Below are positions 1,011 to 37,970 of a stretch of 64,000 bases of DNA, piece by piece. Source of the stretch: Candidatus Multivoradales bacterium (GTDB lineage Bacteria; Acidobacteriota; Thermoanaerobaculia; Multivoradales; JAHEKO01); contig CBDFIJ010000004.1 of NCBI GenBank assembly GCA_965248055.1, positions 1,756,299 to 1,820,298 of the forward strand. Direction: 5' to 3'. Both the position numbers and the translations under genes were made by a program. The notes beneath the pieces are model-generated. The model saw only the letters and a program-made list of their open reading frames with translations. It had not been told where the DNA came from and did not search any database. Positions within the stretch are counted from its first letter, which is position 1. Each line of letters opens with the position of its first letter.

Positions 1011-1297
1011 GAATCAAAGAAAGTAAGCTGCACCGCCAAGCCATCTCAAAATAAGCGGGATCACAAAACACCCTTCAACTGACGATAGAAGTGGTCGTTT
1101 CGTTTGTGAAAGAGTTCCCTAAGCTCAGAAAGTTCCTCGGGAGTGTGCAACAGACCCCATAATTCCCAAGAGTCAGCAATGACTGTTGTAGAAAGCCTCG
1201 GTACTACTTTGTGCCTAAGATCCCACTCATCCAACCGACGCTCCGCATCTACCGCAACCCGCGTGGCTATGAATAATAGCGAGCTACAACGAATGAG

Positions 1298-1372
1298 TCG
1301 GCCGGAGGCAGGGATTAATGCACTAATTCGACAGGTCAGAGCTGTGTGTTCTACCACTGAATGACCTTCCAA
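1298..1372 (-). pseudogene. Degenerate tRNA-Gln-like remnant, about 78% identical to the tRNA-Gln at 5363..5437
   Basis: Direct alignment to the intact tRNA. The D-arm and the anticodon arm are retained, with the same CTCTGAC loop and compensatory stem changes. The T-arm (GTTCGAATC becomes an ATTAATCC-like sequence) and the acceptor stem no longer pair. Confidence 0.6.
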
Positions 1373-1828
1373 GCGCCGCGCGGACGAACCCGGACCGCGA
1401 ATACTCAGCAGCAACAAGAAAAGTGCCAAATGACCCGTTCCTCCCTCCGCACCTCAACCGTGTGGGTTCCAAGACTTCTAGCTCTAGCCCATATGTGCCC
1501 TTAGAACCTTCGTTGATTTGGCGCACATACGGATCGGCACTTCACCTTCTAGGGCGGGAGGTCAGCGCTGGCGCACAAGTTCGTCTATTCTTCTGGGGCC
1601 ACCAATCTTAACTTCTTGTGTTTCTTTCCAACATATGGATCGACCAACTCTGGGCATGCAACCGGGGGAGCACCCGCCCCATCAGGCCTCCGCCTAATGG
1701 GGCCTCTCAGGGGTACTGGACAAATACAACCTCTTGGCAGTACACCTTTCGTCGTGATGTTGTGATAAGATTTTTGACTACTAGGAAAACTAGTCGCCCA
1801 GGGGGCGCCGACCAAAAGGAGGGGTTTT

Positions 1829-2605
1829 ATGCGACTTTGTCTGGCCGGGCTGTTAACCATCGTGTTGATTGTGATGGTGCCGCACTTGGGCGCTTCCGCT
1901 CAAGAGGTTCCAATGGAGATTGATGCTCCTGCGGCCTCCGCGCAACGCTTGGGGGTCGTAGGCTACACGGGGTATCAACGCGATGGCACCAACTTTGTTA
2001 TCGAAGTTGAGACTAAGGCTGGCTTCTTTGACGTTGTGCTTTCGTATCTTGAAAACGGATCGACCGCTGTAAAAATAACCGATGGCCGAGACGTGTTAAT
2101 AATCGAATTCAACGGCCCGGAAGGTACCTTCTCGGTTGAGCATATCGGTTCGATGCGAGCCTATAAAAAGACCCTCGACAAGACAAGTAAGAAGTGGCGA
2201 GAACACCCTGGAAGCGACAAGGGCCTACTTCGTCGATTTGATAAGCTAATCAAGGTTGGTGCTGAAACGGCGGCTGCTGTTCAGAACAGCCTGCTCGTCG
2301 ACTTAGATGAGCGCTCGACCGCCGACAAAGAGAGTCGCGGCGTGAATACCACTTCGTCATTGTCGCAGGGCGGATGCTACATTCCATGCAACGGTCCATG
2401 GGTGCGGGGTAGCGCGTCCATTTATTGGACCCGCTCTGCGTGTTGTGCTTCAGCTTTACAAGATGCCCACAATCAATGTTGGACGCAGTACTGTATCGGC
2501 TGCTGCGAGTTGCGCTCATGTGATGCAGCCTGCGGCTTTGATGACTACTTTTGTGCGACCTGTGGGGTCTCCGGTAGAAATTGTGGATTGTTGTGTTGCA
2601 CCTAG
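1829..2605 (+). CDS. Secreted protein with a C-terminal domain very rich in cysteine
   Basis: Signal-peptide-like N-terminus (MRLCLAGLLTIVLIVMVPHLGASA) and an RBS 'aaggagg' 7 nt upstream. The last roughly 80 residues contain about 16 Cys, including CC, CxxC and CxxCC clusters. Confidence 0.65.
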   Translation: MRLCLAGLLTIVLIVMVPHLGASAQEVPMEIDAPAASAQRLGVVGYTGYQRDGTNFVIEVETKAGFFDVVLSYLENGSTAVKITDGRDVLIIEFNGPEGTFSVEHIGSMRAYKKTLDKTSKKWREHPGSDKGLLRRFDKLIKVGAETAAAVQNSLLVDLDERSTADKESRGVNTTSSLSQGGCYIPCNGPWVRGSASIYWTRSACCASALQDAHNQCWTQYCIGCCELRSCDAACGFDDYFCATCGVSGRNCGLLCCT

Positions 2606-2827
2606 TCAGGTGAATTTCGTTTTTCGCGGATTGTTGTGTTAGCTGCTGATATTGGTTTTACCGAAGTTGTCCTCGTGGTCTCGCTTGCGGTAGCGAAGCT
2701 GGGCTTATTTGCGGCCGTAGCGCTGTGGGTGGTCAGGGTGTTGAGAAAGAGAGGTTCGAGCCGAGAAAACCCTTGAGGCAAAGCGGTTTTTGCTGGGGTT
2801 CCTTCATTTGGCGCCGCTTGGGCCACC

Positions 2828-3196
2828 CTATATTTTTATTTTTCGGCGCCGATTTTCTTCGCGGCGCTTCTGTCTCTCCGGTGTATCTTCAAGCCGTTTT
2901 TCAAGGTGGTCGGCTAGTTCGCCGAAGACGTCATCAACTTTCTCAAATGGTATTTTTTTGATGAGAAGCTGCTTGCGAACCGCAGGGGGCGACAGGACCC
3001 AGGTGATTACTTGTTGGTCGTTCATGTTGGTCAAGCGAGTCAGGTCTTCACCCGAAAGGCCTTCGACCGCTTTTTCGTAGGCACCCTTAAACTCAGGGTC
3101 TTCAAGTTTCTCCAGAAGCTGTTTTGCTCCTTCGCGATTCTTTACTAGTTCGGCTGTTGTCGCTCCTGCTTCCTTCCATCCTCTACCTTGACTCAT
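2828..3196 (-). CDS. Hypothetical charged helical protein
   Basis: Clean 122-aa ORF with plausible coding composition. I did not recognise it. Confidence 0.45.
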   Translation of the reverse strand: MSQGRGWKEAGATTAELVKNREGAKQLLEKLEDPEFKGAYEKAVEGLSGEDLTRLTNMNDQQVITWVLSPPAVRKQLLIKKIPFEKVDDVFGELADHLEKRLEDTPERQKRREENRRRKIKI

Positions 3197-3296
3197 TTTT
3201 CACTACCTCTTCTTCCTGGGTTTCCCTGGGCCTAGGAGCTTGCTGAAAAACCCCACCACCGGACCATAACGATTCTATAATTGGGAATAGGAGATT

Positions 3297-4367
3297 TTGA
3301 TGCGTGGATCGGATCAAGGTCAGGGATCAATGTTCAGCTACGTTGACCTGGAACGGCGAATTCCTCGGTCTCATCCGTTGCGGCGGATCCGAAGTTTGAT
3401 GGACGAAGCTCTTGTAGAGCTATCGGAGCGTTTTGAGACGGTCTACGCTTCGAGTGGTCGTCCTTCGATTCCCCCCGAGCGTCTGCTCCGAGCATTGCTG
3501 CTTCAAGTGCTCTTCAGCGTGCGTAGTGAACGCCAGCTGATGGAGCAACTTGAGTACAACCTTCTATTTCGCTGGTTTGTCGGTCTTGGTATCGACGAGC
3601 GGGTGTGGGACGCGACGACGTTTTGCAAGAACCGAGAGCGCTTGCTCGAAGGTTCGATCGCGGAAGAACTGTTTGCAGCGGTGCTGTCTCAAGCCGAGGA
3701 CCGTGATCTGCTGTCACCGGATCACTTCAGCGTTGATGGCACACTGATCGAGGCTTGGGCTTCGCACAAGAGCTTTCGGCCAAAGGACGAAGAGGTTAAA
3801 CCTCTGGACGGTGGAGCGGACTTCCGAGGCCAGAAGCGGTTGAACCAAACGCACGCTTCGACGACCGACCCCGAGTCTCGGCTGTCGCGAAAAGGCCGTG
3901 GTAAGGAAGCAAAACTAAGCTACCGGGGCAACATTCTGGTCGAGAACCGGCACGGGATGATTGTCAACACCGAGGTCAACATCGTCACCGGCAACGGTGA
4001 GACAACAGCGGCTCTGGCCATGCTGGAGCAGCGGGCTAGCAATCATCGCGTCACGGTGGGTGCTGACAAGGGCTATGACAACCGAGCGTTTGTAGAGAAT
4101 GCGAGGAAGCTGAATGCGACACCTCACGTAGCGCAAAGCACCAAGAATCGCCGCAGCCGGATTGACCGACGCACCACTCGCCACGCAGGTTACGAGATCA
4201 GCTTGGCGAGACGACCCAGAGTCGAGGCACCCTTCGGCTGGCTCAAACAGTACGGACTGCAACGCAGACCGATGTTTCGAGGCGTAGCCCGCATCGGTTG
4301 GTCTTTCACTTTTGCGGCAACAGCGTTTAACTTGCTCCGAATAGCCAATCTGAGCGCGCCAACATGA
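3297..4367 (+). CDS. IS5/IS1182-type DDE transposase
   Basis: N-terminal 'LLRALLLQVLFSVRSERQLMEQLEYNLLFRWFVGL' and the typical IS5-family DDE organisation. I could not define terminal inverted repeats. Confidence 0.75.
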   Translation: MMRGSDQGQGSMFSYVDLERRIPRSHPLRRIRSLMDEALVELSERFETVYASSGRPSIPPERLLRALLLQVLFSVRSERQLMEQLEYNLLFRWFVGLGIDERVWDATTFCKNRERLLEGSIAEELFAAVLSQAEDRDLLSPDHFSVDGTLIEAWASHKSFRPKDEEVKPLDGGADFRGQKRLNQTHASTTDPESRLSRKGRGKEAKLSYRGNILVENRHGMIVNTEVNIVTGNGETTAALAMLEQRASNHRVTVGADKGYDNRAFVENARKLNATPHVAQSTKNRRSRIDRRTTRHAGYEISLARRPRVEAPFGWLKQYGLQRRPMFRGVARIGWSFTFAATAFNLLRIANLSAPT

Positions 4368-4648
4368 CGAATTTCTATCCCAAGTGCTCCTCAAATCGCT
4401 CGAATCACCCGGTAGGGCGAATCGAAGAGCTGACCCAAGGGGTCACCAACACCCTCAACTCGCCAGCCACCTTGATTCGTCTCCACATTCAAAGTACTTC
4501 GACCGTTATGACCACTGAAATTAGCTCCGTTGCCCTTTTTTCAGCAGGCTGCTAGGGCACCGCAGCTCGACCTCGGGCCTGGTTCATCCCGCTGTTACTG
4601 TACCCCTCAGCCCTCCACCACGACAACCTGGGGCGGTAGAATCTAGTA

Positions 4649-4888
4649 ATGACCAAGGCTGAACTGAGCAAGGCGGCGATGAACCTCTCCCCTGCCGAGC
4701 GGTTTGAACTGGCACAGAGACTTTGGGAAAGCCTAGAGCCAAACAAAGAAGACGGTGCGATTCCATTCTATGAATGGCAGCGAGAAGCGATCGATCTGGC
4801 GCTTACCAACTACGAGGCCAACCCCGACTCTGCCGTTCCCGCTGAAGAAGCCGAAGCCGAGATTCGAACTCGACTCGGCCTCGAATGA
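4649..4888 (+). CDS. Type II antitoxin of the 'putative addiction module component' family
   Basis: 'MNLSPAERFELAQRLWESL' signature. Its stop overlaps the start of the downstream toxin ORF (ATGA). Confidence 0.7.
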   Translation: MTKAELSKAAMNLSPAERFELAQRLWESLEPNKEDGAIPFYEWQREAIDLALTNYEANPDSAVPAEEAEAEIRTRLGLE

Positions 4889-5184
4889 ATTCACTCTTTG
4901 CCCAAGAAGCACTCGACGATATCGAACGCGCGGCAACCTATTATCTTGAGAGCGCCAGCAAGGCCGTCGCCTCTGCTTTCTTTCGTGGCCTAACCGAAGC
5001 GCGATCGTTTGTGGAGGACCATCCACTCGGCGCTCCTCTGCTCTTTCTCCAAGTTCGCCGCAAGCGGCTCACCAAGTTTCCTTTTCTGCTGTTCTACGTC
5101 GCTGAACCGGACCGCGTGGTCATCCTGCGAGTTCTCCACTCCGCCCAAGATCCTGCACGCTGGCCGATCACGGATCGAAAATGA
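4885..5184 (+). CDS. RelE/ParE-family toxin
   Basis: 99 aa and translationally coupled to the antitoxin, with a ParE/RelE-like C-terminus 'VVILRVLHSAQD'. Confidence 0.65.
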   Translation: MNSLFAQEALDDIERAATYYLESASKAVASAFFRGLTEARSFVEDHPLGAPLLFLQVRRKRLTKFPFLLFYVAEPDRVVILRVLHSAQDPARWPITDRK

Positions 5185-5307: not shown

Positions 5308-5362
5308 ACCGAGCACGACCGAACCCTGGCTACCAGCAACGACTGAGCTGAAAGCGAAGGAA

Positions 5363-5437
5363 TGGCTGGGAGGCAGGGATTCGAACCCCGATTCTACGGG
5401 TCAGAGCCGTATGTCCTACCATTGAACGACCTCCCAA
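5363..5437 (-). tRNA. tRNA-Gln, anticodon CTG
   Basis: The reverse complement folds as a cloverleaf: acceptor UGGGAGG/CCUCCCA plus G and CCA, D-arm AGUGGUAG-like, anticodon stem UACGG/CCGUA with loop CUCUGAC, and T-loop GGTTCGAATCC. It matches bacterial tRNA-Gln, which starts UGGGG and ends CCCCAGCCA. Confidence 0.9.
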
Positions 5438-5812: not shown

Positions 5813-6226
5813 TCAGCTCGTCGACTTCTGCTGTGACCTCGGTCTCGAGGATCGTCTGGAGCCCTTTTTTTTCTCCGCGTTTGTGCTTTCAAACTCGGGG
5901 TCGGTCAGCTCTGCATCGGCCAATTGCTCACAAGCCTGCCAATAAGCCTCCAGGTGCTGGCGAAACTTTCGACCTACGGCGATCTGTTGGCTTACTCTTT
6001 CGGCCTGTTGCGCCGTCAGACGCCGCGATTGTGTCCGGCCCCCCACCGCGCGAGTGAGGCTGAAGTAGGGACCGTGGCGGGCTTCTTCACTGCTGGCGCA
6101 CTTACAGTTTGACTTGCCACACTTGAGAAAGCGCTCTCCGAGCGAGCCTCGTCGCATCGGCTTGGGGTGGCTGAAGCTCTCGACCACCTTTCGGACTGTT
6201 TCGGGGATCATTTTGGGTTTCGCCAT
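5813..6226 (-). CDS. Small basic zinc-ribbon protein (Cys-x4-Cys and 'HGPYFSLTR' motif), function unknown
   Basis: The start at MAKPK has an RBS 'aggagg' 7 nt upstream. The motif is 'CGKSNCKC...HGPYF'. Confidence 0.55.
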   Translation of the reverse strand: MAKPKMIPETVRKVVESFSHPKPMRRGSLGERFLKCGKSNCKCASSEEARHGPYFSLTRAVGGRTQSRRLTAQQAERVSQQIAVGRKFRQHLEAYWQACEQLADAELTDPEFESTNAEKKKGSRRSSRPRSQQKSTS

Positions 6227-6496
6227 GGCGTCCTCCTGTCGGCTATAATAGCCGACAGATAGATCCCCATGCAACCCAAGTCGCTTGAACATTCTCAGCT
6301 TCTCACACTGATGTCGTACACCCGTCACAACTTTGCGCCTTCACGAGATAGCTTTTTTCAAGTACGCTTTATCTCTGCATTCGTTGACTGAGCGGTGTCA
6401 ACCTAGGTTGTCGCTAATGTAGGGGCAACCTCCGATACGAATGATCCCGTAGCGAAAATATCGCTGCTTAGACCGTTCTAAAAGGAACTCTCCATC

Positions 6497-7213
6497 GTGC
6501 CCAAAGACACTCCTAACCCAAAAGCCAGTCAGGCTGTCACCGCTCTCGACTCCCGTTGTGACAGCGATGATAGTCGTTCTAATTGTTCGGCACCAACAGG
6601 TTCTCTCCATAGAGAAACACGTTGCTTAACTTGTTGCACACTTATTGAGCCCGGAGCAACAAAGTGCATCCACTGCAACAGCTACCAAAACTACAAAAGA
6701 TACTTTTCAATTGGGCTACCCTTCTTGTCGCTTCTGGTTGCTCTAGCTTCAGTTTTCACCGTTATGATTTCCGAAGTTAGCAAGCTTCCGAGGTCTGAAG
6801 TTCAGATTCGGGTAGTCAAAGTGGAAGTTCGAGACTTTCCCGAGAACTCTCGAAGCACATACGTCCGCCTTTGGATGCAGAACCGCGGAAATCGGCCAGC
6901 AACTGTTCGCAGTATTCACGTTGCTTGGAAGAGCGCTGAGCAGAAAAATAACACCCTGCGCAATCCTGACTACTTCAACGTAGAGACTGCTACCCATCCA
7001 TATCCAGATGGTGGCCGCGCTATTCCGATTGTGCTCTTGTCCGGTGTGACGGGCGTCTTTGAGGTAGTCTGGGAAAGTCATGAAGAGATAATAGAAACCA
7101 CCCCTTGTAGAGTCAGACTTCAAGTACTCAACTGGCGTGGTCAAGCGGAAAAGATGGAACTAGATTGCTGGTCTTGGGGTCACGATGTGGATTCCGATGT
7201 CTGGTCAAGCTAG
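6497..7213 (+). CDS. Low-GC hypothetical protein: a cytoplasmic Zn-ribbon (CLTCC...CIHC), one transmembrane helix and an extracytoplasmic domain
   Basis: GTG start. The composition is well below the window average. The domain order was read directly from the translation. Confidence 0.5.
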   Translation: MPKDTPNPKASQAVTALDSRCDSDDSRSNCSAPTGSLHRETRCLTCCTLIEPGATKCIHCNSYQNYKRYFSIGLPFLSLLVALASVFTVMISEVSKLPRSEVQIRVVKVEVRDFPENSRSTYVRLWMQNRGNRPATVRSIHVAWKSAEQKNNTLRNPDYFNVETATHPYPDGGRAIPIVLLSGVTGVFEVVWESHEEIIETTPCRVRLQVLNWRGQAEKMELDCWSWGHDVDSDVWSS

Positions 7214-7405: not shown

Positions 7406-7885
7406 ATGTTTCAGAATCAGCCCATATTGCCCGTCTCGCCGAAGGCGACCGAGGAGCGTAGCGACGAGGGATCCGGAGGGGAGACGGCGCAGTTGTCCTC
7501 GACCCCCGAATCGGTACCCGACCCTGAGATCGAGGCTCGACCCGCCAGACGGCGGTTTACGGCAAAGTACAAGCTGGCGATCTTGGAGCAGGCCGACGCT
7601 TGCTCCAGCCGAGAGGAGGTCGGGTCCCTGTTGCGCCGGGAGGGTCTCTACTCATCTCATCTATCTAACTGGCGCCTAGCTCGGCGACGGGGATCGCTTG
7701 CCGCGCTAGGCAAGAGGCGCGGACGCAAACCCAAAAGGCACCCGTTGGAAAGCAAGGTTGCTCGACTAGAGCGGGAGAAGACTCGGCTTGAGAACGAATT
7801 GCACAGGGCACAGCTGATCATCGATGTGCAAAGAAAAGTAGCCGGGCTGCTGGGTATCCCCTCAGAGGGCGAGAAGAACTCGTGA
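7406..7885 (+). CDS. IS3-family transposase OrfA, with a helix-turn-helix and a leucine zipper
   Basis: 'RRFTAKYKLAILEQAD...' is a typical IS3 OrfA. Its stop overlaps the orfB start. Confidence 0.75.
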   Translation: MFQNQPILPVSPKATEERSDEGSGGETAQLSSTPESVPDPEIEARPARRRFTAKYKLAILEQADACSSREEVGSLLRREGLYSSHLSNWRLARRRGSLAALGKRRGRKPKRHPLESKVARLEREKTRLENELHRAQLIIDVQRKVAGLLGIPSEGEKNS

Positions 7886-8895
7886 AAGCGGCCAGGACGC
7901 TGGCTCCGTGGGTCGGTATCGCACCGGCCTGCCGGAGCCTGAGCGTCAGTCGTGCAACGTTCTATCGTCGGCTTCGGCCGAGATCAACCGAGCCTCAGCA
8001 GCCTCGACCGACTCCAGCTCGGGCACTGACAGTCAGCGAAAAACAACAGGTCCTTGACCTACTCAACGGGCCGCGCTTTGTCGACGCTGCACCGGCGGCC
8101 GTGGTGGCCACCCTTCTCGACGAAGAACGCTATCTGTGCTCGGAGCGCACCATGTACCGACTCCTGGCAGCTGAGAAGACGTTGCAGGAGAGACGGCGCC
8201 AACGCCGCCATCCGGTCTATACCAAGCCAGAGCTACTCGCCACAGCGGCAAACCAAGTCTGGAGCTGGGATATCACCCGGCTGCGAGGTCCGCAGCCGGG
8301 ATGGTGGTTCTATCTCTACGTTGTCCTCGATATCTTCAGCCGCTATGTGGTCGGCTGGATGCTCGCCGAGCACGAACGCGAGGCCTTAGCCCAAAGGCTT
8401 CTCAAGGAGACCTCAACCAAGCAAGGCATTCCCAAGAATCAGCTAACCCTACACAGTGATCGGGGCTCGCCGATGACCGCCAAGGACACCGGACGACTCC
8501 TCGTACGGCTTGGTATCTCTCAGTCGTTCTCGCGGCCTCGCATCTCCAACGATAATCCCTTCTCCGAAGCCCAATTCAAGACCCTCAAGTATCACCCGAG
8601 CTTTCCCGATCGGTTCGGCTCGATCGAGGACGCTATCGCCTTTTGCAGGTCGTTCATTATCTGGTACAACACCCAGCACCGTCACGCCGGCATCGCCATG
8701 CTGACACCCGAAGATGTCCACTACGGCAAGGCCGACCACAAGCTCAAGATCCGTCAACTAGCCCTCGATGAAGCCTGGCGAAACAACCCGCAGCGCTTTG
8801 TCCGAGGAAGACCGACCATTCAGCTACTACCCAGAGCCGTATGGATCAATCCACCCGAACGTCAACATGCCAAGGAGGTCGTCCCGATACACTAA
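7882..8895 (+). CDS. IS3-family transposase OrfB, with a DDE integrase core
   Basis: 'WSWDITRLRG...YLYVVLDIFSRYVVGW...HSDRGSPMTA...YNTQHRHAGI' is an rve-type catalytic core. Confidence 0.85.
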   Translation: MKAARTLAPWVGIAPACRSLSVSRATFYRRLRPRSTEPQQPRPTPARALTVSEKQQVLDLLNGPRFVDAAPAAVVATLLDEERYLCSERTMYRLLAAEKTLQERRRQRRHPVYTKPELLATAANQVWSWDITRLRGPQPGWWFYLYVVLDIFSRYVVGWMLAEHEREALAQRLLKETSTKQGIPKNQLTLHSDRGSPMTAKDTGRLLVRLGISQSFSRPRISNDNPFSEAQFKTLKYHPSFPDRFGSIEDAIAFCRSFIIWYNTQHRHAGIAMLTPEDVHYGKADHKLKIRQLALDEAWRNNPQRFVRGRPTIQLLPRAVWINPPERQHAKEVVPIH

Positions 8896-22920: not shown

Positions 22921-25900
22921 CTAGTCCGAGTTATATATATCTTGAGATGTAGCGTCCCTACTGACAGGTCGACACTTCACCTGCTTTCCAGTGACAGGAT
23001 CCACATCGCATTCAATGGTACGGGCAAAGTCTTGCCCTTCGTCTTCAAATAGAAATAGCATTCCCTCATCCGTACCTGGCTCGACTTGGCCCTCGACAAA
23101 ATCAAGGACATCTTGATCGGGGAATTCTTCCCCCATCGCAGCTTTCACCAGACCCAAATGGTGTTGAGCTGACTTGTAATCGTTTCGACCTGCGGCCAAT
23201 AAACCCAAACCCCGATGTGCCAACATATCGGTACCATCTTGCTTCAGTGCTTGCTCTAAAGCACGTTTGCTCTCCGGTCTCCGATCCAAGTGGAAAAGCA
23301 GCGTCCCCAAATGAGAAAGCGCAGACGGATACTCTGAATTCTTGTCGACGAGTTGCTGCAAAATTTCCACTGAAGATTCCAGCCCCTCAGAGGCTTCCGC
23401 AACGCCAGATAGAGCCAAAGTAGCGAGCCCTGGATGCGCTGTCTCCTGAACAGTCTCGCTAAATCCAGTAAGCGTCATCGCACCATCTGTAGCCTGTTGC
23501 CATGCTGCGTTGCGCACAATGTGGGTGACGTATGTGTACGCTTCTACCGCTGGTTCGAGGGCTGCGAGTGCCCTTTCCCATTGATCGTGTTCTATGTAGA
23601 TACGAAATATAGTTATTCGATCATCGACATCGTCTGCATCAATGTCCAGATGGGTATCGAAGCTATCCCAAGCCGCATCGAGCCGGCCAAGCTCGACAAG
23701 AACCAGCCCTCGATTCAAATGTGCCCATTGATCGCGACTAGAAATCTCAATCTGACGGTCGAGCTGAACTAACGCTTCCTCAAAACGTCCGAGCTGCTTC
23801 AACGCTCGACCGTAGTTGTTGAAAGCCGCTTTATGTTCTGGCTCGATTTCAACCACATGTTCAAACAGCGGGAGCGACTCCTCCGCAAAGCCATTTTCTA
23901 GAAGGGAGTACCCCGCTCGGTGAAGCTCCCAATCATCGTTCGACATCGAGTTCAGGCGGGACAGGACCTCCTTTGCACGCCCGTCACGCTCTAAAGAAAA
24001 GGCACATTCCCCTATCCGCAACCACGCTCGTGTGTCATCTGGGTCAACCGCAATAGCTCGCTCCAGGAACTGGGTCGCCTCGCCGCAACGATCTTCCTCC
24101 GTATGAATCCTGCCGATTTCAGCAAGGGCGTAGTCGTCTAAAGGAAAGAACTTCAAGTGGTCCAAATAGGCTTCGATTGCTTCGTCATTGCGATCGGACT
24201 CCGAAAAAGCCCAGCCGATGTACTTGCGGGCTTTGTCATCGTAGGGCTTGACCTCCAAGTGCTTTCTCATCGTTTCGATGCTGTCTTCGAAGCGACCCAT
24301 CTCGCTGTAACAACGACCTAGGTAGTACCAAGCAGAGTCGTGTTCTGGCGATTGCTCAGTGATCCTTTGATACAAGTCCACGGCGGTCGCATAGTTATCT
24401 GATCTCCACGCGGCCATCGCAGCGTTCTCCAAAGTCTCAAGGCTAGCTTCCGAGGCTCTGGCCTCCGCATCCCCAGTGAAGCGAGCCGAAACTGTTTGTT
24501 TCGCGTCGGCGAGCGCTGCACTACGTAGTACGCCAAAGGCTCCAGGGTCGGAAGGTAGCGTATCGACAACCAGATGGCGGGTGGCTCTGAGTGTCCCGTT
24601 ATCGAACGAATACTCCGAAGAATAATTGCCGAACTCCCACGTCGAGTCGACCGGTAGAGGAAGCCTCACCTCGACACCTTCTGATATCTGAAGTTCCATC
24701 GTGAACTTCTGCGAGTTAGTTGTCCAGCGCCGCCGAAGCCATTCTTTTTCAAAAACCTCGTCAGAGATCACGGTTGGGCGACGCAGCGGGAACCGAACGG
24801 ACTGCTCACTGGTTAGAGGGTTAAGAAAATTCTTGAGGGTTAGATCGTATTCAATACGCAGCGGTTGGTCCGTATTGGTGGGTTCCCCGACAGTCAGGTT
24901 TGAGATGTCTCCTTCGGTGGGTTCCAGTCCATCAAAAACCATCTTCGTCCAGTTCGCTTTTGGTACGAACATAAAAGCCTGCCTCAACTCGAACTCGTCG
25001 TCCCCCCGCAATTCGAACACCACACGTGCGGTCAAGGTTCCGTTTTCGTCAACTTCGCCCTCCAGCTTTTGTTCCAATACCTCCGACACCAAGGAGCGCT
25101 CCGGGGTTCGAACAATGCGACTGTCCTCTCCGTCGATCACCAAAGCGTTTTTGTCGATTAACGCTTGAGATAAATACTGGTAAGGGGTCACCTGAGACGT
25201 ACTGTCCAGCCACACCGACCCCTTCTCCGTCGGCACCATCGTGATCATGTGGTTGAATTGCCCTGGTGAGGGCACTTCCGGTTCAATGGCGGTAGACGAA
25301 CCAATCAACACCGCCTTTGACTCGAACCCAGCGGTCAAGAGCATCGCGGCTAGAAGAGAGTGTTTATCTTTGCAATCGCCATATCCATTGGAAAGCACTT
25401 CCGACGCGAAATGAGGTTGGTAGCGACCTACGCCGTAGCTGATGCTCAAATAACGAAATTCACGGGCGACAAAATTGTAGATACGTTCGATTTTTTCCGC
25501 TGGTGATCCCGCGTCTGCGATCAGCTCCCGCACCCTATTCTCAATCGTTGGATCTGGAACTCCTCTTCCTTGTAACAAATCAGATGCCCAGCTCCCAACT
25601 TCGCTCCACGACAAGAAACTAGACAACTGCACATCTGGCTGCTGCGTTTCATAAGGTGATAATCCCTCGTCTTCTTCTTTTTCTTCACCTTTTGAAGTGT
25701 GCGTCCAACGATAGACCTGTTGAGGGCCAGCCTCCGTCACTTCTGGTTCAGTGACAGACTTGAAACGTACCTCTCGTTTCTTGGGAAAGCTAACAGTCAG
25801 CGATTCGCTGATAACGGGAAACAAGGTAGTGAACGCATGAGTCATCCAAAACTGGCCCGGTGCTTCTGGCTCCAGAATTTCAGTGCTGGTCTGCACTTCC

Positions 25901-26337
25901 AGGATGTTCCCACGCGCCAACGGTGGAGCCGTGGCATGAACGATGTGAAGGTCAGTGTAGGACGGAAATTGGGTAGTAACCGGCGCCGGAAGATCTTTGA
26001 TCTCAGAAGCGCTCTCATGGAGAAGACTCCCCTCTGAATCAAAAACAGCGATTCGATCCACAGAGAATGACTCCCGACCTTTTAGGTAGGGAAAAAGGAG
26101 TTGCCCGAATTCTTGCGCTGCGCCATCCGATTGCAAACGAACCTTCAGCAAGTTCGTCTTCTTTCCAGTGCCATCGTTGTTAAAAGAGTACGAGATGTCG
26201 ATCGACTCAAAGACCAAAGGCTCGCTGTCCAAATCCTCTTCTGCGTACATTGCTGTCGACGCAGCACTTGCCGCTAGAACAATCACACCAGCCCATCGAA
26301 ACAAGAACCCTAGTTGCACGGTAATTCCCCCAATCAA
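22921..26337 (-). CDS. Large secreted protein with an N-terminal DUF3857/transglutaminase-like cysteine-protease core and a long C-terminal TPR array
   Basis: 'GYGDCKDKHSLLAAMLLTAGFESKAVL' is a transglutaminase-like core. There are multiple TPR repeats and a signal peptide. Confidence 0.8.
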   Translation of the reverse strand: MIGGITVQLGFLFRWAGVIVLAASAASTAMYAEEDLDSEPLVFESIDISYSFNNDGTGKKTNLLKVRLQSDGAAQEFGQLLFPYLKGRESFSVDRIAVFDSEGSLLHESASEIKDLPAPVTTQFPSYTDLHIVHATAPPLARGNILEVQTSTEILEPEAPGQFWMTHAFTTLFPVISESLTVSFPKKREVRFKSVTEPEVTEAGPQQVYRWTHTSKGEEKEEDEGLSPYETQQPDVQLSSFLSWSEVGSWASDLLQGRGVPDPTIENRVRELIADAGSPAEKIERIYNFVAREFRYLSISYGVGRYQPHFASEVLSNGYGDCKDKHSLLAAMLLTAGFESKAVLIGSSTAIEPEVPSPGQFNHMITMVPTEKGSVWLDSTSQVTPYQYLSQALIDKNALVIDGEDSRIVRTPERSLVSEVLEQKLEGEVDENGTLTARVVFELRGDDEFELRQAFMFVPKANWTKMVFDGLEPTEGDISNLTVGEPTNTDQPLRIEYDLTLKNFLNPLTSEQSVRFPLRRPTVISDEVFEKEWLRRRWTTNSQKFTMELQISEGVEVRLPLPVDSTWEFGNYSSEYSFDNGTLRATRHLVVDTLPSDPGAFGVLRSAALADAKQTVSARFTGDAEARASEASLETLENAAMAAWRSDNYATAVDLYQRITEQSPEHDSAWYYLGRCYSEMGRFEDSIETMRKHLEVKPYDDKARKYIGWAFSESDRNDEAIEAYLDHLKFFPLDDYALAEIGRIHTEEDRCGEATQFLERAIAVDPDDTRAWLRIGECAFSLERDGRAKEVLSRLNSMSNDDWELHRAGYSLLENGFAEESLPLFEHVVEIEPEHKAAFNNYGRALKQLGRFEEALVQLDRQIEISSRDQWAHLNRGLVLVELGRLDAAWDSFDTHLDIDADDVDDRITIFRIYIEHDQWERALAALEPAVEAYTYVTHIVRNAAWQQATDGAMTLTGFSETVQETAHPGLATLALSGVAEASEGLESSVEILQQLVDKNSEYPSALSHLGTLLFHLDRRPESKRALEQALKQDGTDMLAHRGLGLLAAGRNDYKSAQHHLGLVKAAMGEEFPDQDVLDFVEGQVEPGTDEGMLFLFEDEGQDFARTIECDVDPVTGKQVKCRPVSRDATSQDIYNSD

Positions 26338-35771: not shown

Positions 35772-37970
35772 ATGGATCTCGCAACTTGGGCATTGTTGAC
35801 CGCACTCGCGGCGAGCTCTGGCGCCACAGGAGAAGCCCCAGAGGCTCCCGTCGAGGAATCGATCGGAGAGGTACACGCTGTCTTTGACAACTTGACGGTG
35901 GTCGGCAGTGCCGAGACAGCGGGCGGCTCCGCCCATGTCATCGGGCAAGCCCAGTTGGAGGTACACAACTACAACGACGTTCACCGAGTGCTGCGGCAGG
36001 TTCCTGGAGTCAACATTCAAGAAGAAGATGGATTTGGTCTTCGACCCAACATTGGTATTCGAGGAACCGGCGTCGAACGGTCGCAAAAAATCACGTTGAT
36101 GGAGGACGGTGTCCTGATCGCCCCGGCGCCCTATGCAGCACCGGCCGCTTACTACTCTCCGACGGTCGGGCGGATGGAGAGCCTCGAGGTACGCAAAGGC
36201 ACCAGCGCCGTGCGGCAGGGTCCACACACAACCGGGGGGGTGATCAATTATCGTTCGACCAGTATCCCGGAGTCGTTTTCTGGAAAAGCGGAGCTAGCAC
36301 TCGGAACCGATGGTCTGCTCCGAACCCACGCCTATGCGGGCGACAGCAACCAGCGGCTTGGCTGGCTGGTCGAGGGATATCAACTATCCAGCGATGGCTT
36401 CAAGCAGCTCGATACCGCCGACAGTACCGGGTTTGACCTGACCGATCTGGTTGCCAAGTTTCGTCTCTCTTCTCGATCCGATGCCAAGATCTATCAAGCG
36501 GCTGAACTCAAGCTGGGCTGGAATCAGCAAGACGGAGCCGAGACCTATCTCGGTCTTACCGCCGAAGACTTTGAACGCACTCCGTATCGGCGTTACGCCG
36601 GTTCGTCGGCCGATCGCATCGACACGGAACACAATCAGTTTCAGCTATCGTATTTCGCTCAGCTCTCGCCTCGTTTCGACCTAACCGCGGTCGTCTATAA
36701 CAATGAATTTTCGCGCAACTGGCACAAGTTGCAGTCGGTAAATGGACTTGGATTGAATGCCGTCTTGAACGATCCGCAGAACCACTCGGCGGAGATTTCC
36801 GTTCTTCGTGGAGATCTCAACGCGGTCGACAGTCTCTCGGTACGCAACAACCGGCGCGACTACTTCTCGCGCGGCGTGAGCGCATCGCTAGGAGCACACG
36901 TTGACGGACGGATTCGCCACGACCTGGAAGTTGGCGTACGAGTGCATCGCGATGAAGAGGATCGTTTTCAAGAGGAAGACCTCTACAACATGAGCTTTGG
37001 ACAACCCTTGTTGTCTTCACTGGGGGCCCCCGGGAGTCAGTCCAACCGAGTTGCCTCCGCCAACGCAATCGCGGTTTTTTTTGAAGATAGCTTTTCTTTT
37101 GGAAAATGGACCGTAACGCCAGGAGCCCGCTACGAGGTCATCGATCTGGAGCGCCAGGACTATGGACGATCCGATCCCGTTAGAGGAAGTGAGCCAAGGT
37201 CGACGACCAATCGGGTCCGCCAACTGGTTCCCGGAGTCCGGGTGCAACACGTAGTCAATGAACGCAATTTGTGGTTCGCCGGCCTCTACCAAGGTTTCTC
37301 TCCGCCAACCCCGGGATCGAACGAACGGGTCGAGCCCGAGGAAAGCGACAACATTGAAATCGGCTGGCGCTATTCCGGACGCAAGCTAGCGGCCGAAGTC
37401 ACCGGTTTCTACTCAAACTATGGCAACCTGCTTGGCACCGACACGCTCTCAAGCGGTGGTGATGGCACCGGCAACCAGTTCAACGGCGGCAGTGCCTTGG
37501 TGCAAGGACTGGAAGCCGCCGCGACGTGGGAACTGCGACCTTCCCAGTCGGCGCAAGTGCCTCTTCGCTTGGTCTATACCTACACCGACACGGAGTTTCT
37601 CTCCAGTTTTGAAACCAACTTTGCCGACTGGGCGCCTCAAGTGGAACGTGGAGACGAACTCCCGTATGTGCCCAAGCATCAACTGACCCTGGGGGCTACC
37701 TGGAATAGCCCACGTTGGTCGGTTGGCATCGACGGTAACTTGAACGGGGCGATGCGTACCCTTGCTGGCGCTGGCGCAATCCCGTCTGACAGTGGGATCC
37801 CCAGTCGTTGGACCTGGGATCTGGCGATCGAGCGCGACCTGAGCTCTTACCGTCTGTTTCTCCAGGTGCGCAACCTAACCGATAACACCTATTTGGTGGC
37901 GCGGCGACCCGCCGGACTCCGCCCGGGGATGCCAAGAACCGTGGTGGTCGGAGTAAAGGTCGACTTCTAG
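35772..37970 (+). CDS. TonB-dependent outer-membrane receptor
   Basis: Plug domain and a 22-strand barrel with a C-terminal '...VVVGVKVDF' aromatic terminus. The start lies 30 bp after the Fur-family gene. Confidence 0.9.
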   Translation: MDLATWALLTALAASSGATGEAPEAPVEESIGEVHAVFDNLTVVGSAETAGGSAHVIGQAQLEVHNYNDVHRVLRQVPGVNIQEEDGFGLRPNIGIRGTGVERSQKITLMEDGVLIAPAPYAAPAAYYSPTVGRMESLEVRKGTSAVRQGPHTTGGVINYRSTSIPESFSGKAELALGTDGLLRTHAYAGDSNQRLGWLVEGYQLSSDGFKQLDTADSTGFDLTDLVAKFRLSSRSDAKIYQAAELKLGWNQQDGAETYLGLTAEDFERTPYRRYAGSSADRIDTEHNQFQLSYFAQLSPRFDLTAVVYNNEFSRNWHKLQSVNGLGLNAVLNDPQNHSAEISVLRGDLNAVDSLSVRNNRRDYFSRGVSASLGAHVDGRIRHDLEVGVRVHRDEEDRFQEEDLYNMSFGQPLLSSLGAPGSQSNRVASANAIAVFFEDSFSFGKWTVTPGARYEVIDLERQDYGRSDPVRGSEPRSTTNRVRQLVPGVRVQHVVNERNLWFAGLYQGFSPPTPGSNERVEPEESDNIEIGWRYSGRKLAAEVTGFYSNYGNLLGTDTLSSGGDGTGNQFNGGSALVQGLEAAATWELRPSQSAQVPLRLVYTYTDTEFLSSFETNFADWAPQVERGDELPYVPKHQLTLGATWNSPRWSVGIDGNLNGAMRTLAGAGAIPSDSGIPSRWTWDLAIERDLSSYRLFLQVRNLTDNTYLVARRPAGLRPGMPRTVVVGVKVDF

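What the first reader, a model, noticed from the sequence alone, without database searches (positions are those of the whole stretch)
1829..2605. Secreted protein whose last roughly 80 residues contain about 16 cysteines
After a signal peptide and an unremarkable domain of about 170 aa, the C-terminus turns extremely Cys-dense (CYIPC, ACCAS, QCWTQYCIGCCELRSCDAACGFDDYFCATCG, NCGLLCCT). Such tails are seen in metal-binding modules and in disulfide-knotted adhesins or toxins. They are also seen in precursors of cysteine-cross-linked ribosomal peptides. The gene lies inside the tRNA-bounded island.
Basis: seen in the sequence. Interest (0 to 1): 0.55.

Follow-up and report, generated by a model that had tools for sequence, protein, structure and literature searches.

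The report
Undescribed exported protein with disulfide-knotted tail
This is an intact gene for an exported two-domain protein whose tail is a tightly disulfide-cross-linked mini-domain; it belongs to a widespread family of soil and sediment bacteria that no database describes, and it may be a self-contained antimicrobial precursor, though its function is untested.

Summary
ORF 1829-2605 (+) encodes 258 aa with a strong ribosome-binding site and a Sec-type signal peptide. The last 76 residues carry 15 Cys; the 16th is in the signal peptide.

It is not an orphan. Exhaustive HMMER finds 107 cluster representatives with the same layout: signal, divergent N-domain (17% identity), Gly/Pro/Ser linker, conserved C-terminal Cys module (45%). 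Pfam, NCBIfam, PADLOC and PDB sequences and folds give no significant match. Both AlphaFold models are confident (pLDDT 88-90).

The Cys are disulfides, not metal ligands or RiPP cross-link sites:
- ten Cys are near-invariant;
- accessory Cys appear and vanish strictly in pairs (192/216, six independent events);
- one partner migrates (205 to 233, both pairing with 245);
- 71 of 77 tails have an even Cys count;
- no maturase gene recurs nearby.

The only recurrent neighbour is a small membrane protein, either PLDc_N type or a single-TM mini-ORF. The window has a 46-codon candidate at 2636-2776.

The layout parallels the halocin C8 precursor, but homology was tested and rejected (hhalign probability 0.07%). 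Best reading: a new family of exported disulfide-knotted proteins, possibly bacteriocin-like. Function is unproven.

The parts
1816..1824 (+). Shine-Dalgarno site (AAGGAGGGG), with GGAGG 6 nt before the ATG
   Evidence: Read from the sequence.
1829..2605 (+). Gene for the 258-aa exported two-domain Cys-tail protein (stop codon included)
   Evidence: ORF list and translation. Full-length homologues exist, e.g. P0002 at E=4e-23 over residues 12-253. The AlphaFold2 model has pLDDT 88.5 and pTM 0.81.
1829..1900 (+). Predicted Sec signal peptide, residues 1-24 (…GASA|QE)
   Evidence: Read from the sequence: n-region MR, hydrophobic core, A-x-A motif. 68 of 77 family members have a comparable hydrophobic N-terminus. 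pLDDT is low here.
1934..2329 (+). N-domain, residues ~36-167: eight-strand beta-meander (43-125) plus a long helix (138-167). Poorly conserved across the family.
   Evidence: DSSP on the model, pLDDT 91-97. Mean pairwise identity is 17% for the sheet and 16% for the helix. No Pfam or NCBIfam match. No significant PDB fold match.
2330..2374 (+). Flexible linker, residues ~168-182
   Evidence: pLDDT drops to 63-72. In the family the linker between the helix and the first core Cys (residues 168-186 in the window protein) is 7-51 aa long and rich in G/P/S/D, with no conserved cleavage motif.
2375..2599 (+). Cys-rich module, residues 183-257. It has ten core Cys (187, 206, 217, 222, 225, 226, 231, 235, 242, 252), the accessory pair 205/245, and extras 183, 256 and 257. 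The fold is beta-hairpin, helix, beta-hairpin.
   Evidence: Column conservation. Pairwise Cys covariation and partner migration. Domain-only model with pLDDT 90. No PDB sequence or fold match. The core DNA pattern hits once, at 2492-2554, with 0 expected by chance.
2599..2622 (+). Weak terminator-like hairpin (CACCTAGTCAGGTG) plus a T-rich run, overlapping the stop codon
   Evidence: Consensus scan only. The number of such sites in the region is not above the shuffle expectation.
2636..2776 (+). Candidate partner gene: a 46-codon GTG-start ORF 30 nt after the stop, encoding a hydrophobic membrane peptide with a basic tail (MLAADIGFTEVVLVVSLAVAKLGLFAAVALWVVRVLRKRGSSRENP)
   Evidence: Its position and character match the small membrane ORFs enriched downstream of family genes: 6/18 versus 13/267 controls, p=4e-4. 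Homology to those partners is NOT supported, so it remains a candidate only.
1290..1372 (-). Decayed copy of tRNA-Gln (pseudo-tRNA), the left boundary of the 4-kb segment that carries the gene
   Evidence: 75% identical over the whole length to 5355-5437. Not called by ARAGORN or by Rfam even at E<=1.
5363..5436 (-). tRNA-Gln(CUG), the right boundary of the segment
   Evidence: ARAGORN and Rfam, 59.3 bits.

Best explanation
What it is (shown or well supported).
- The gene is intact and encodes a Sec-exported two-domain protein.
- It belongs to an undescribed family found in Acidobacteriota, Chloroflexota, Desulfobacterota and Bacillota.
- After signal-peptide removal, a fast-evolving beta-sheet/helix N-domain is joined by a flexible Gly/Pro/Ser linker to a ~70-aa C-terminal alpha/beta mini-domain.
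- That mini-domain is locked by five core disulfides, plus one to three accessory ones. The window protein probably has seven disulfides and one free Cys.
- The Cys module is the conserved 'business end' of the protein.

How it most likely works (inferred).
- In the oxidising extracytoplasmic space the module folds into a rigid knot that presents conserved polar and aromatic residues (R193, R202-S203, D212-A-N214, N219, D232, D239-Y240) to a conserved target.
- The N-domain packs against the module as a carrier, chaperone or masking domain.
- A small inner-membrane protein encoded alongside acts as partner or immunity factor. This is the PLDc_N type in about a third of loci, and a single-TM mini-ORF in others, including a candidate in the window.
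- This is the logic of a self-contained bacteriocin precursor, analogous to halocin C8 (immunity or carrier N-part plus a 10-Cys C-terminal peptide) but not homologous to it.

My confidence is about 0.85 that this is an exported disulfide-knotted domain of a real, new family. It is about 0.35 that the role is antimicrobial or competitive.
For: Gene reality: strong SD site, ATG start and signal-like N-terminus.

Family: 107 representatives at E<=1e-3, 31 at E<=1e-10, most 240-290 aa with the module at the C-terminus. There are 43 further loci in genomes and metagenomes.

Disulfides:
- Ten Cys are invariant or nearly so.
- Pair 192/216 co-occurs 11/0/0/66, with six independent joint changes on a tree.
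- Pair 205/245 co-occurs 40/0/6/31. All six exceptions carry a replacement Cys at 233.
- 71 of 77 tails have an even Cys count.

Fold: full model pLDDT 88.5, pTM 0.81. A pTM that high despite a floppy linker implies a confidently packed two-domain unit, which is my inference. The module alone gives pLDDT 90.

Conservation: module 45% (35% at non-Cys columns) versus N-domain 17%.

Partner: PLDc_N small two-TM proteins (PF13396, E 1e-7 to 2e-9) lie adjacent on the same strand in ~12 of 33 dereplicated loci. Three of them abut or overlap the stop codon. Single-TM mini-ORFs lie downstream in 6/18 remaining loci versus 13/267 control ORFs, p=4e-4.

Conflict-like context: the gene sits in a 4-kb segment with an IS5 transposase and a ParDE-like toxin-antitoxin pair. 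Its GC3 is 0.57, against 0.745 for gltX and 0.64-0.69 for most of the long ORFs sampled. The family is spread patchily across phyla.

Halocin C8 parallel: the architecture and evolutionary pattern match the description in bioRxiv 10.64898/2026.07.27.741052.
Against: - There is no experimental data on function anywhere.
- No homology to halocin C8: TIGR04449 and PF22862 are not hit, and hhalign probability is 0.07%. The Cys spacing differs, and the module is polar (GRAVY +0.10) whereas HalC8 is hydrophobic (+0.80).
- The linker has no conserved cleavage motif, so release of the module is unsupported.
- The host is a diderm, since the window encodes a TonB-dependent receptor. A Sec signal alone therefore reaches only the periplasm.
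- A sizeable subfamily is membrane-anchored, with a cytoplasmic DCC-like CxxC domain. That fits a diffusible toxin poorly.
- About half of the loci with adequate flanks show no small membrane partner.
- The window's 46-codon ORF is not demonstrably homologous to any partner, and a weak terminator-like hairpin lies between it and the gene.
Confidence: 0.4

Rival explanations
1. A protective or binding protein of the cell envelope. It stays in the periplasm, or on the outer face of the membrane. Its rigid disulfide knot binds and neutralises or senses an incoming factor, in the manner of periplasmic lysozyme inhibitors or effector-immunity proteins. The small membrane protein tethers or partners it.
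For: The host is a diderm and the protein carries only a Sec signal. Membrane-anchored variants exist. An inner-membrane partner recurs. The conserved polar surface residues suggest a specific binding site. The module is neither cationic nor hydrophobic, unlike many membrane-active bacteriocins.
Against: There is no similarity to any known inhibitor or immunity family in Pfam, NCBIfam, PADLOC, or PDB sequences and folds. No cognate toxin or effector gene recurs nearby.
Confidence: 0.25
2. An extracytoplasmic thiol-redox sensor or relay. The many disulfides are redox-active, and the module communicates envelope redox state. In the fused subfamily it signals to a cytoplasmic DCC-type (DxxCxxC) thiol-disulfide oxidoreductase domain across one TM helix.
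For: There are recurrent in-frame fusions to an N-terminal 'LLFDSGCxxC' domain. That domain weakly matches DCC1-like PF04134 (E 0.006-0.017) and is followed by a Tat-signal-like or TM segment. The fusions occur in at least eight divergent members: L001, L004, L016, L039, P0051, P0062, P0079 and P0100.
Against: Most members, including the window protein, have only a cleavable signal peptide and no cytoplasmic domain. The DCC matches fall below Pfam's gathering threshold. Strict pairwise conservation, with compensating partner migration, is typical of structural disulfides rather than catalytic ones. There is no conserved CxxC in the module itself.
Confidence: 0.1
3. A metal-binding (metallothionein- or zinc-cluster-like) tail that sequesters or senses metals.
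For: Very high Cys density, 15 of 76 residues. The conserved Asp and Asn could contribute ligands.
Against: The protein is exported. There are no conserved His. Cys counts are even in 71/77 tails, and accessory Cys are gained and lost as distant pairs (24-40 residues apart), with a single-partner migration. That pattern fits disulfides, not four-ligand metal sites. The domain models confidently as a compact alpha/beta fold without metal.
Confidence: 0.05
4. A precursor of a Cys-cross-linked ribosomal peptide (sactipeptide, ranthipeptide or lanthipeptide-like).
Against: No radical-SAM, SPASM, YcaO or Lan gene appears among the recurrent or top-listed families of 89 neighbouring ORFs, and no neighbour other than the small membrane protein is conserved in 44 loci. 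The precursor is 258 aa with a Sec signal, and the tail is a folded 70-aa domain. One search lists only the first 25 of 63 families, so a single sporadic maturase cannot be excluded, but a conserved one can.
Confidence: 0.02

Closest known systems
Halocin C8 precursor ProC8 (Natrinema; TIGR04449 halocin_C8_dom plus PF22862 Hac8_like_N)
   Same: One gene of ~260-283 aa. It has an export signal, then a ~150-200-aa N-part, then a ~70-76-aa C-terminal peptide with 10 Cys. The C-terminal peptide is conserved while the N-part diverges. Gene neighbours are not conserved in bacterial homologues, and those homologues use Sec signals (paper read).
   Different: There is no detectable homology. Neither model is hit by any of the 77 members, at E<=10 for TIGR04449 and E<=0.01 for PF22862. 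hhalign against a verified HalC8 domain gives 0.07% probability. Cys spacing is 18-10-4-2-0-4-3-6-9 versus 2-7-3-7-13-7-8-8-5. The module is polar, whereas HalC8 is strongly hydrophobic. Cleavage and activity are unknown here. A separate small membrane partner gene is frequent here.
Bacteriocin plus small membrane immunity gene pairs (general class II/III bacteriocin organisation; from established knowledge, not tested here)
   Same: A secreted protein gene is followed at 11-30 nt, or overlapped, by a gene for a 35-85-aa membrane protein on the same strand.
   Different: There is no dedicated ABC exporter or peptidase, no double-glycine leader and no regulatory genes. The partner is absent from about half the loci. 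The partner family (PLDc_N, PF13396) is a generic membrane hairpin, and I found no described immunity role for it.
Cysteine-stabilised alpha/beta mini-proteins such as defensin-type folds (recalled from knowledge; a lead only)
   Same: A small helix packed on beta-hairpins and stapled by multiple disulfides.
   Different: Foldseek found no such structure, or any other, at E<0.7 in the PDB. The module is twice as large, has 5-8 disulfides, and lacks the CxxxC…CxC signature.
Sactipeptide and ranthipeptide RiPP precursors
   Same: A Cys-dense C-terminus.
   Different: No maturase genes, a Sec signal, a long folded precursor, and covariation typical of disulfides.

Membership tests
Halocin C8 family | C-terminal domain matches TIGR04449 (halocin_C8_dom) | tested here: not met
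   No hit at E<=10 for the window protein or any of the 77 members. The positive control P0108 hits at E=1.1e-13.
Halocin C8 family | Profile-level similarity of the Cys module to a verified HalC8 domain | tested here: not met
   hhalign of the 58-sequence module alignment A3 against P0108 gives probability 0.07% over 13 aligned columns. The HalC8 side was a single sequence, which limits sensitivity.
Halocin C8 family | N-part matches the HalI immunity domain (PF22862 Hac8_like_N) | tested here: not met
   No Pfam hit for the window protein at E<=10, or for the 77 members at E<=0.01. A structural comparison with HalI could not be run.
Halocin C8 family | Architecture: signal, then N-part, then a ~70-76-aa C-terminal peptide with 10 Cys | tested here: met
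   compared with the description read.
Halocin C8 family | Proteolytic release of the C-terminal peptide, antimicrobial activity, and immunity conferred by the N-part | not testable with these tools
   This needs expression, mass spectrometry and inhibition assays.
Exported disulfide-rich (structural disulfide) domain | N-terminal export signal | tested here: met
   Signal-like N-terminus with an A-S-A motif. 68/77 members have a hydrophobic N-terminus. No dedicated signal-peptide predictor was available.
Exported disulfide-rich (structural disulfide) domain | Cys conserved in even numbers, gained and lost as pairs | tested here: met
   71/77 tails have even counts. Pair 192/216 shows six joint events. 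Pair 205/245 shows partner migration to 233. The window protein itself has 15 Cys, so one is unpaired.
Exported disulfide-rich (structural disulfide) domain | S-S bonds physically present | not testable with these tools
This needs MS disulfide mapping or a crystal structure.
RiPP precursor (sacti-, ranthi- or lanthipeptide) | Dedicated maturase (radical-SAM/SPASM, YcaO, LanB/C/M) encoded nearby | tested here: not met
   None among the recurrent or top-listed Pfam families of 89 neighbour ORFs. No conserved neighbour other than a small membrane protein in 44 loci.
RiPP precursor (sacti-, ranthi- or lanthipeptide) | Short leader-core peptide without a Sec signal | tested here: not met
   The protein is 258 aa, has a Sec-type signal, and consists of two confidently folded domains.
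Metal-binding Cys cluster (metallothionein or zinc-ribbon type) | Ligand sets (CxxC knuckles, His) conserved as units of three or four | tested here: not met
   No conserved His. The co-varying Cys are single pairs 24-40 residues apart.
PLDc_N small membrane partner (PF13396), for the window ORF 2636-2776 | Sequence match to the partner HMM | tested here: not met
   No hit at E<=1 in the window. It is not in the top 8 of the window's six-frame translation with three HMMs built without it. Only its position and hydrophobic character match.
Any curated family (Pfam-A, NCBIfam, PADLOC, PDB sequences, PDB and BFVD folds) | Significant match | tested here: not met

The most novel reading that the evidence does not exclude
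This is the founding example of a new class of single-gene, Sec-dependent bacteriocin precursors in Acidobacteriota and Chloroflexota. It would be convergent with halocin C8. A novel 5-8-disulfide alpha/beta knot would be released from a carrier or immunity N-domain to attack a conserved envelope target, and small PLDc_N-type or single-TM membrane proteins would act as the immunity factors. That would also give PLDc_N mini-proteins their first assigned role.
Probability: 0.25. Interest if true: 0.75.

Novelty: new variant of a known kind. Interest (0 to 1): 0.5.

Why it matters
Acidobacteriota and Chloroflexota dominate soils and sediments, yet almost nothing is known about their secreted effectors.

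This work defines a family of at least 107 sequence clusters that no domain database covers. It has:
- a confidently modelled fold with no relative in the PDB by sequence or Foldseek;
- an evolutionary signature that effectively maps several of its disulfides;
- a recurrent small membrane partner.

If the halocin-C8-like logic holds, this would be a new, compact and very stable (5-8 disulfides) antimicrobial scaffold from under-explored phyla, and an example of convergent evolution of 'toxin plus carrier in one gene'.

If the function turns out to be different, the family is still a well-defined target for structural genomics and a new entry for domain databases.

There is also a methodological lesson. 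The word-indexed search called the protein an orphan, while exhaustive HMMER found over a hundred relatives.

Tried and rejected
- **Word-indexed homologue search**, with the single protein and with the 77-sequence profile. It returned only the protein itself and one fragment, so it is not usable for this family. Exact-sequence context look-ups also failed.
- **Automatic back-translation of the alignment** for locus finding. The alignment was too diverse, so I replaced it with a hand-made degenerate pattern covering 54/77 members.
- **Halocin C8 homology.** Rejected after HMM and hhalign tests against a verified HalC8 domain.
- **N-domain as an Ig, RHS or YD repeat.** P0016 and P0107 are Big/Ig-repeat proteins that match only 55-70 residues repeatedly, and the teneurin fold hits are insignificant. 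I treated this as generic beta-strand similarity.
- **RiPP maturases, defence systems and conserved operon partners.** None found.
- **Homology of the window's 46-codon ORF to the partner peptides.** The apparent 'FTE…W-V-V-R' resemblance did not survive a leave-one-out HMM ranking.
- **Literature searches** for the sequence motif, for PLDc_N immunity roles, and for Cys-rich bacteriocins in these phyla. Nothing relevant turned up.
- **Identifying the source organism.** All window proteins looked up are unnamed singletons from one 3.35-Mb contig.
Full report
**1. The observation.**
The ORF at 1829-2605 (+) is real. It has an ATG start, 258 codons, and GGAGG 6 nt upstream. The N-terminus (MRLCLAGLLTIVLIVMVPHLGASA|QE) has the n-region, hydrophobic core and A-x-A layout of a Sec signal peptide. 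I read this from the sequence; no predictor was run.

The count needs a small correction. The last 76 residues hold 15 Cys (positions 183-257). The sixteenth Cys is residue 4, in the signal peptide. With a background Cys frequency of 0.94% in the window's long open frames, 15 in 76 has a binomial probability of 7e-16. No other open frame in the window exceeds 10 in 76.

**2. It is not an orphan.**
Pfam and NCBIfam gave nothing credible. The word-indexed search of 5.8 billion clusters returned only the protein itself. An exhaustive HMMER scan of 1.84 billion representatives found 107 proteins at E<=1e-3 and 31 at E<=1e-10.

Most of these are 240-290 aa, with the Cys-rich region aligned at their C-terminus at 45-57% identity. 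Several align over the full length, for example P0002 at E=4e-23 over residues 12-253. The first 'orphan' result was therefore a sensitivity limit of the tool.

None of 77 aligned members matches any Pfam or NCBIfam model in a meaningful way. A profile of the module finds no PDB sequence at E<=10, and PADLOC is negative.

A degenerate DNA pattern built from the invariant core (C-x-G-C-C-x4-C-D-x2-C-x3-D-[YF]-x-C) is specific. It hits the window once, at 2492-2554, with none expected by chance. It retrieved 15 loci from species-representative genomes:
- nine Acidobacteriota, including two Thermoanaerobaculia;
- three Chloroflexota;
- one Desulfobacteraceae, one Bacillota and one unclassified bacterium.

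It also retrieved 28 metagenome contigs and no viral contigs. Because the pattern covers only 54 of 77 members, these counts are lower bounds.

**3. Anatomy.**
The family shares one architecture: signal peptide, N-domain, linker, Cys module.

AlphaFold2 with the 77-sequence alignment gives pLDDT 88.5 and pTM 0.81. The model shows:
- an eight-strand beta-meander (residues 43-125);
- a long helix (138-167);
- a low-confidence linker (pLDDT 63-72);
- a compact beta-hairpin / helix / beta-hairpin module (191-250).

A pTM of 0.81 across a floppy linker implies that the two domains are predicted to pack against each other. This is my inference, because the PAE was not available. The module modelled alone gives pLDDT 90.

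Evolution is lopsided. Mean pairwise identity is 17% in the N-domain sheet, 16% in the helix and 45% in the module, and still 35% in the module once Cys columns are excluded. The linker varies from 7 to 51 residues, is rich in G/P/S/D, and shows no conserved cleavage motif. Besides the Cys, the module conserves G189, R193-G194, R202-S203, A209, D212-A213-N214, N219, G224, D232, G238-D239-Y240 and G249.

**4. The Cys are disulfides.**
Ten Cys are invariant or nearly so: 187, 206, 217, 222, 225, 226, 231, 235, 242 and 252. Accessory Cys behave as bonded partners:
- Columns 192 and 216 are both Cys in 11 sequences and both non-Cys in 66, never mixed (p=1.5e-13). On a tree built without these columns the pair changed state six times, always jointly.
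- Columns 205 and 245 are both Cys in 40 sequences and both non-Cys in 31 (p=7e-16).
- The six sequences with C245 but no C205 all carry a new Cys at 233 ('CDC'). The partner has migrated, which is only expected if 205 and 233 both lie next to 245 in space.
- Flanking Cys (183/185) co-occur with Cys beyond 255. The module-only model pairs residues 183-184 with 256-257 as a beta-bridge.
- Overall, 71 of 77 tails have an even Cys count.

The window protein has the ten core Cys, the 205/245 pair, and C183, C256 and C257. That suggests seven disulfides and one spare thiol.

This pattern, together with the absence of conserved His and the exported location, argues against metal clusters. Actual S-S bonds were not measured.

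**5. Genomic context.**
Across 44 loci (33 groups after dereplication at 85% identity) no radical-SAM, SPASM, YcaO, Lan-type, peptidase-exporter or regulator gene recurs. The neighbours are a mix of housekeeping genes such as MreB/MreC, a PBP, Dus and aminotransferases. The RiPP reading is therefore not supported.

The one recurrent neighbour is a small two-TM protein of about 65-85 aa that matches Pfam PLDc_N (PF13396, E 1e-7 to 2e-9). It lies on the same strand, directly up- or downstream, in about 12 of 33 groups. These span at least three module subtypes and two phyla. In L026, L028 and L035 it abuts or overlaps the stop codon.

Among loci without it, 6 of 18 have a 36-64-codon single-TM ORF beginning 11-238 nt after the stop, four of them within 30 nt. 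The control rate for other ORFs of >=200 aa in the same DNA is 13 of 267 (odds ratio ~10, p=4e-4).

The window is one of these six. A GTG-start ORF at 2636-2776, 30 nt after the stop, encodes MLAADIGFTEVVLVVSLAVAKLGLFAAVALWVVRVLRKRGSSRENP. Its resemblance to TM1 of the PLDc_N partners looked suggestive, but HMMs built without it do not rank it among the top hits of the window's own six-frame translation. A weak terminator-like hairpin also sits at 2599-2612. It therefore stays a candidate.

**6. The 'island'.**
Only one tRNA is called in the window, tRNA-Gln(CUG) at 5363-5436 (-). However, 1290-1372 is a 75%-identical copy of that whole gene. The copy keeps the anticodon loop, but its T-stem is broken and it gives no Rfam hit at E<=1.

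The 4-kb segment between the two holds:
- the Cys-tail gene;
- the candidate mini-ORF;
- an orphan 122-aa ORF (2828-3196, -);
- an IS5-type transposase (3297-4367), flanked by 20-nt inverted repeats at 3231-3250 and 4537-4556;
- a ParDE-like toxin-antitoxin pair (4649-5184).

The gene's GC3 is 0.57. That compares with 0.745 for the adjacent gltX and 0.64-0.69 for five of the six long ORFs sampled elsewhere in the window; the 1138-aa TPR ORF is the exception at 0.54. No integrase is present. This fits an old, decayed acquired segment, but does not prove one.

The rest of the window is ordinary chromosome of a diderm bacterium: a TonB-dependent receptor, aconitase, topoisomerase I and ABC transporters. 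All proteins looked up are unnamed singletons at 90% identity from one 3.35-Mb contig. The organism could not be named.

**7. Comparison with what is known.**
The layout recalled the halocin C8 precursor. According to bioRxiv 10.64898/2026.07.27.741052 (read), ProC8 is 283 aa. [quoted passage not shown] The same preprint reports that bacterial homologues carry Sec signals, have divergent N-parts and lack conserved neighbours.

I retrieved a genuine HalC8 domain as a control: P0108 from Natrinema gari, which matches TIGR04449 at E=1.1e-13. I then tested membership:
- no family member hits TIGR04449 at E<=10, nor PF22862 at E<=10 for the window protein or E<=0.01 for the 77 members;
- hhalign of the module profile against P0108 gives 0.07% probability;
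- the Cys spacing is different;
- the module is polar (GRAVY +0.10) whereas HalC8 is hydrophobic (+0.80).

So this is not a halocin C8 family member. The resemblance is architectural and evolutionary only.

**8. Variants that constrain function.**
- A sizeable subfamily (L001, L004, L016/L019, L039, P0051, P0062, P0079, P0100) has an in-frame N-terminal 'LLFDSGCxxC' domain. It carries the DxxCxxC motif and weakly matches DCC1-like thiol-disulfide oxidoreductases (E 0.006-0.017, below the Pfam threshold). A Tat-signal-like or TM segment follows it. These proteins should be membrane-anchored, with the two-domain body outside the cell.
- In P0093 the module follows the signal peptide directly, with no N-domain.
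- P0064, P0014, P0036, P0089, L005, L024 and L043 append further small Cys-rich units after poly-Gly/Pro linkers.
- L007 has a tandem paralogue that lacks the module.

The module therefore behaves as an independent extracytoplasmic unit.

**9. Verdict.**
I am about 85% confident that this is a functional gene for an exported, disulfide-knotted two-domain protein of a previously undescribed family.

The mechanism I commit to, at about 35%, is a self-contained antimicrobial or competition factor. The conserved knot would be the active part. The variable N-domain would act as carrier, chaperone or mask. The small membrane protein would be the partner or immunity factor. This would work like halocin C8 without being related to it.

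The main rival, at about 25%, is a protective or binding envelope protein. It is favoured by the diderm host, the membrane-anchored variants, the polar character of the module, and the lack of any evidence for cleavage.

The redox-sensor (~10%), metal-binding (~5%) and RiPP (~2%) readings are progressively less likely. Everything about function is inference; nothing here has been tested experimentally.

Noticed in passing
window 1290-1372 (-): A decayed full-length copy of the tRNA-Gln(CUG) gene at 5363-5436. It is 75% identical, the anticodon loop is intact, the T-stem is broken, and it is not called by ARAGORN or by Rfam at E<=1. Together the two bracket a 4-kb low-GC3 segment that has no integrase.
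   Followed up: partly
window 3231-4556: An IS5-type element. The transposase (DUF772 + DDE_Tnp_1) is at 3297-4367 and is flanked by 20-nt inverted repeats (90% complementary) at 3231-3250 and 4537-4556. The exact transposase sequence is not in the 15-billion-protein collection.
   Followed up: partly
window 4649-5184 (+): An overlapping pair of genes: an Unstab_antitox antitoxin (PF09720) and a ParE-family toxin (PF05016). It is a type II toxin-antitoxin module next to tRNA-Gln.
   Followed up: no
window 7406-8895 (+): An IS3-family element with two overlapping ORFs, HTH_Tnp_1 then rve integrase core, overlapping at 7882-7885. Upstream lie a DUF6788 protein (5813-6328, -) and a 238-aa orphan with a CxxC…CxxC N-terminus (6497-7213). 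The first 9 kb of the window is rich in mobile elements.
   Followed up: no
L001 6637-7863, L004 4533-5630, L016 4798-5910, L039 6332-7450; P0051, P0062, P0079, P0100: A subfamily (Chloroflexota and Bacillota among the loci with a named source) in which the two-domain body is fused in frame to an N-terminal DxxCxxC domain. That domain is weakly DCC1-like (thiol-disulfide oxidoreductase, PF04134, below threshold) and is followed by a Tat-signal-like or TM segment. It is unexplained why a cytoplasmic thiol-redox-like domain would be tethered to an extracytoplasmic disulfide-rich domain.
   Followed up: partly
L009 3713-3964, L013 1376-1588, L015 1338-1556, L020 4774-5115, L030 5451-5669, L040 8945-9202 and others: Stand-alone PLDc_N (PF13396) two-TM mini-proteins are the only recurrent neighbours of the family. 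I found no function described for such stand-alone proteins in the literature searched.
   Followed up: partly
L007 2796-3503 (+): A tandem paralogue directly downstream of the family gene. It keeps the signal and the N-domain but has unrelated sequence where the Cys module should be, possibly because of a frameshift.
   Followed up: no
L005 1105-1998, L024 1635-2258, L043 996-1871; P0014, P0036, P0089, P0020, P0087, P0106: Some members append a second small Cys-rich unit after a poly-Gly/Pro linker. Examples are 'CxEGDLVTPxxCVxxCGGYVxGxYCxVP' and 'CxxxxxCPxGxxCxxxxC'. These add-on knots also have no family assignment.
   Followed up: no
whole window; The word-indexed protein search reported the protein as unique, even when given a 77-sequence profile, whereas exhaustive HMMER found 107 relatives. 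Cys-rich divergent families seem to evade the 5-mer prefilter, so 'ORFan' calls from that tool alone are unsafe.
   Followed up: yes
window, ten ORFs looked up: Every window protein found in the collection is an unnamed singleton at 90% identity from one 3.35-Mb contig. The source genome appears to have no close sequenced relative. It is a diderm, because the window encodes a TonB-dependent receptor at 35772-37970.
   Followed up: partly
window 22921-26337 (-): A 1138-aa protein that combines DUF3857, a transglutaminase-like core and many TPR repeats. Its GC3 (0.54) is below that of the other long ORFs sampled.
   Followed up: no
window 1795-1807: A GC-rich hairpin (CGCCCAGGGGGCG) about 10 nt upstream of the gene's Shine-Dalgarno site. 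On the minus strand it scores as a terminator-like site. Its role is unknown.
   Followed up: no
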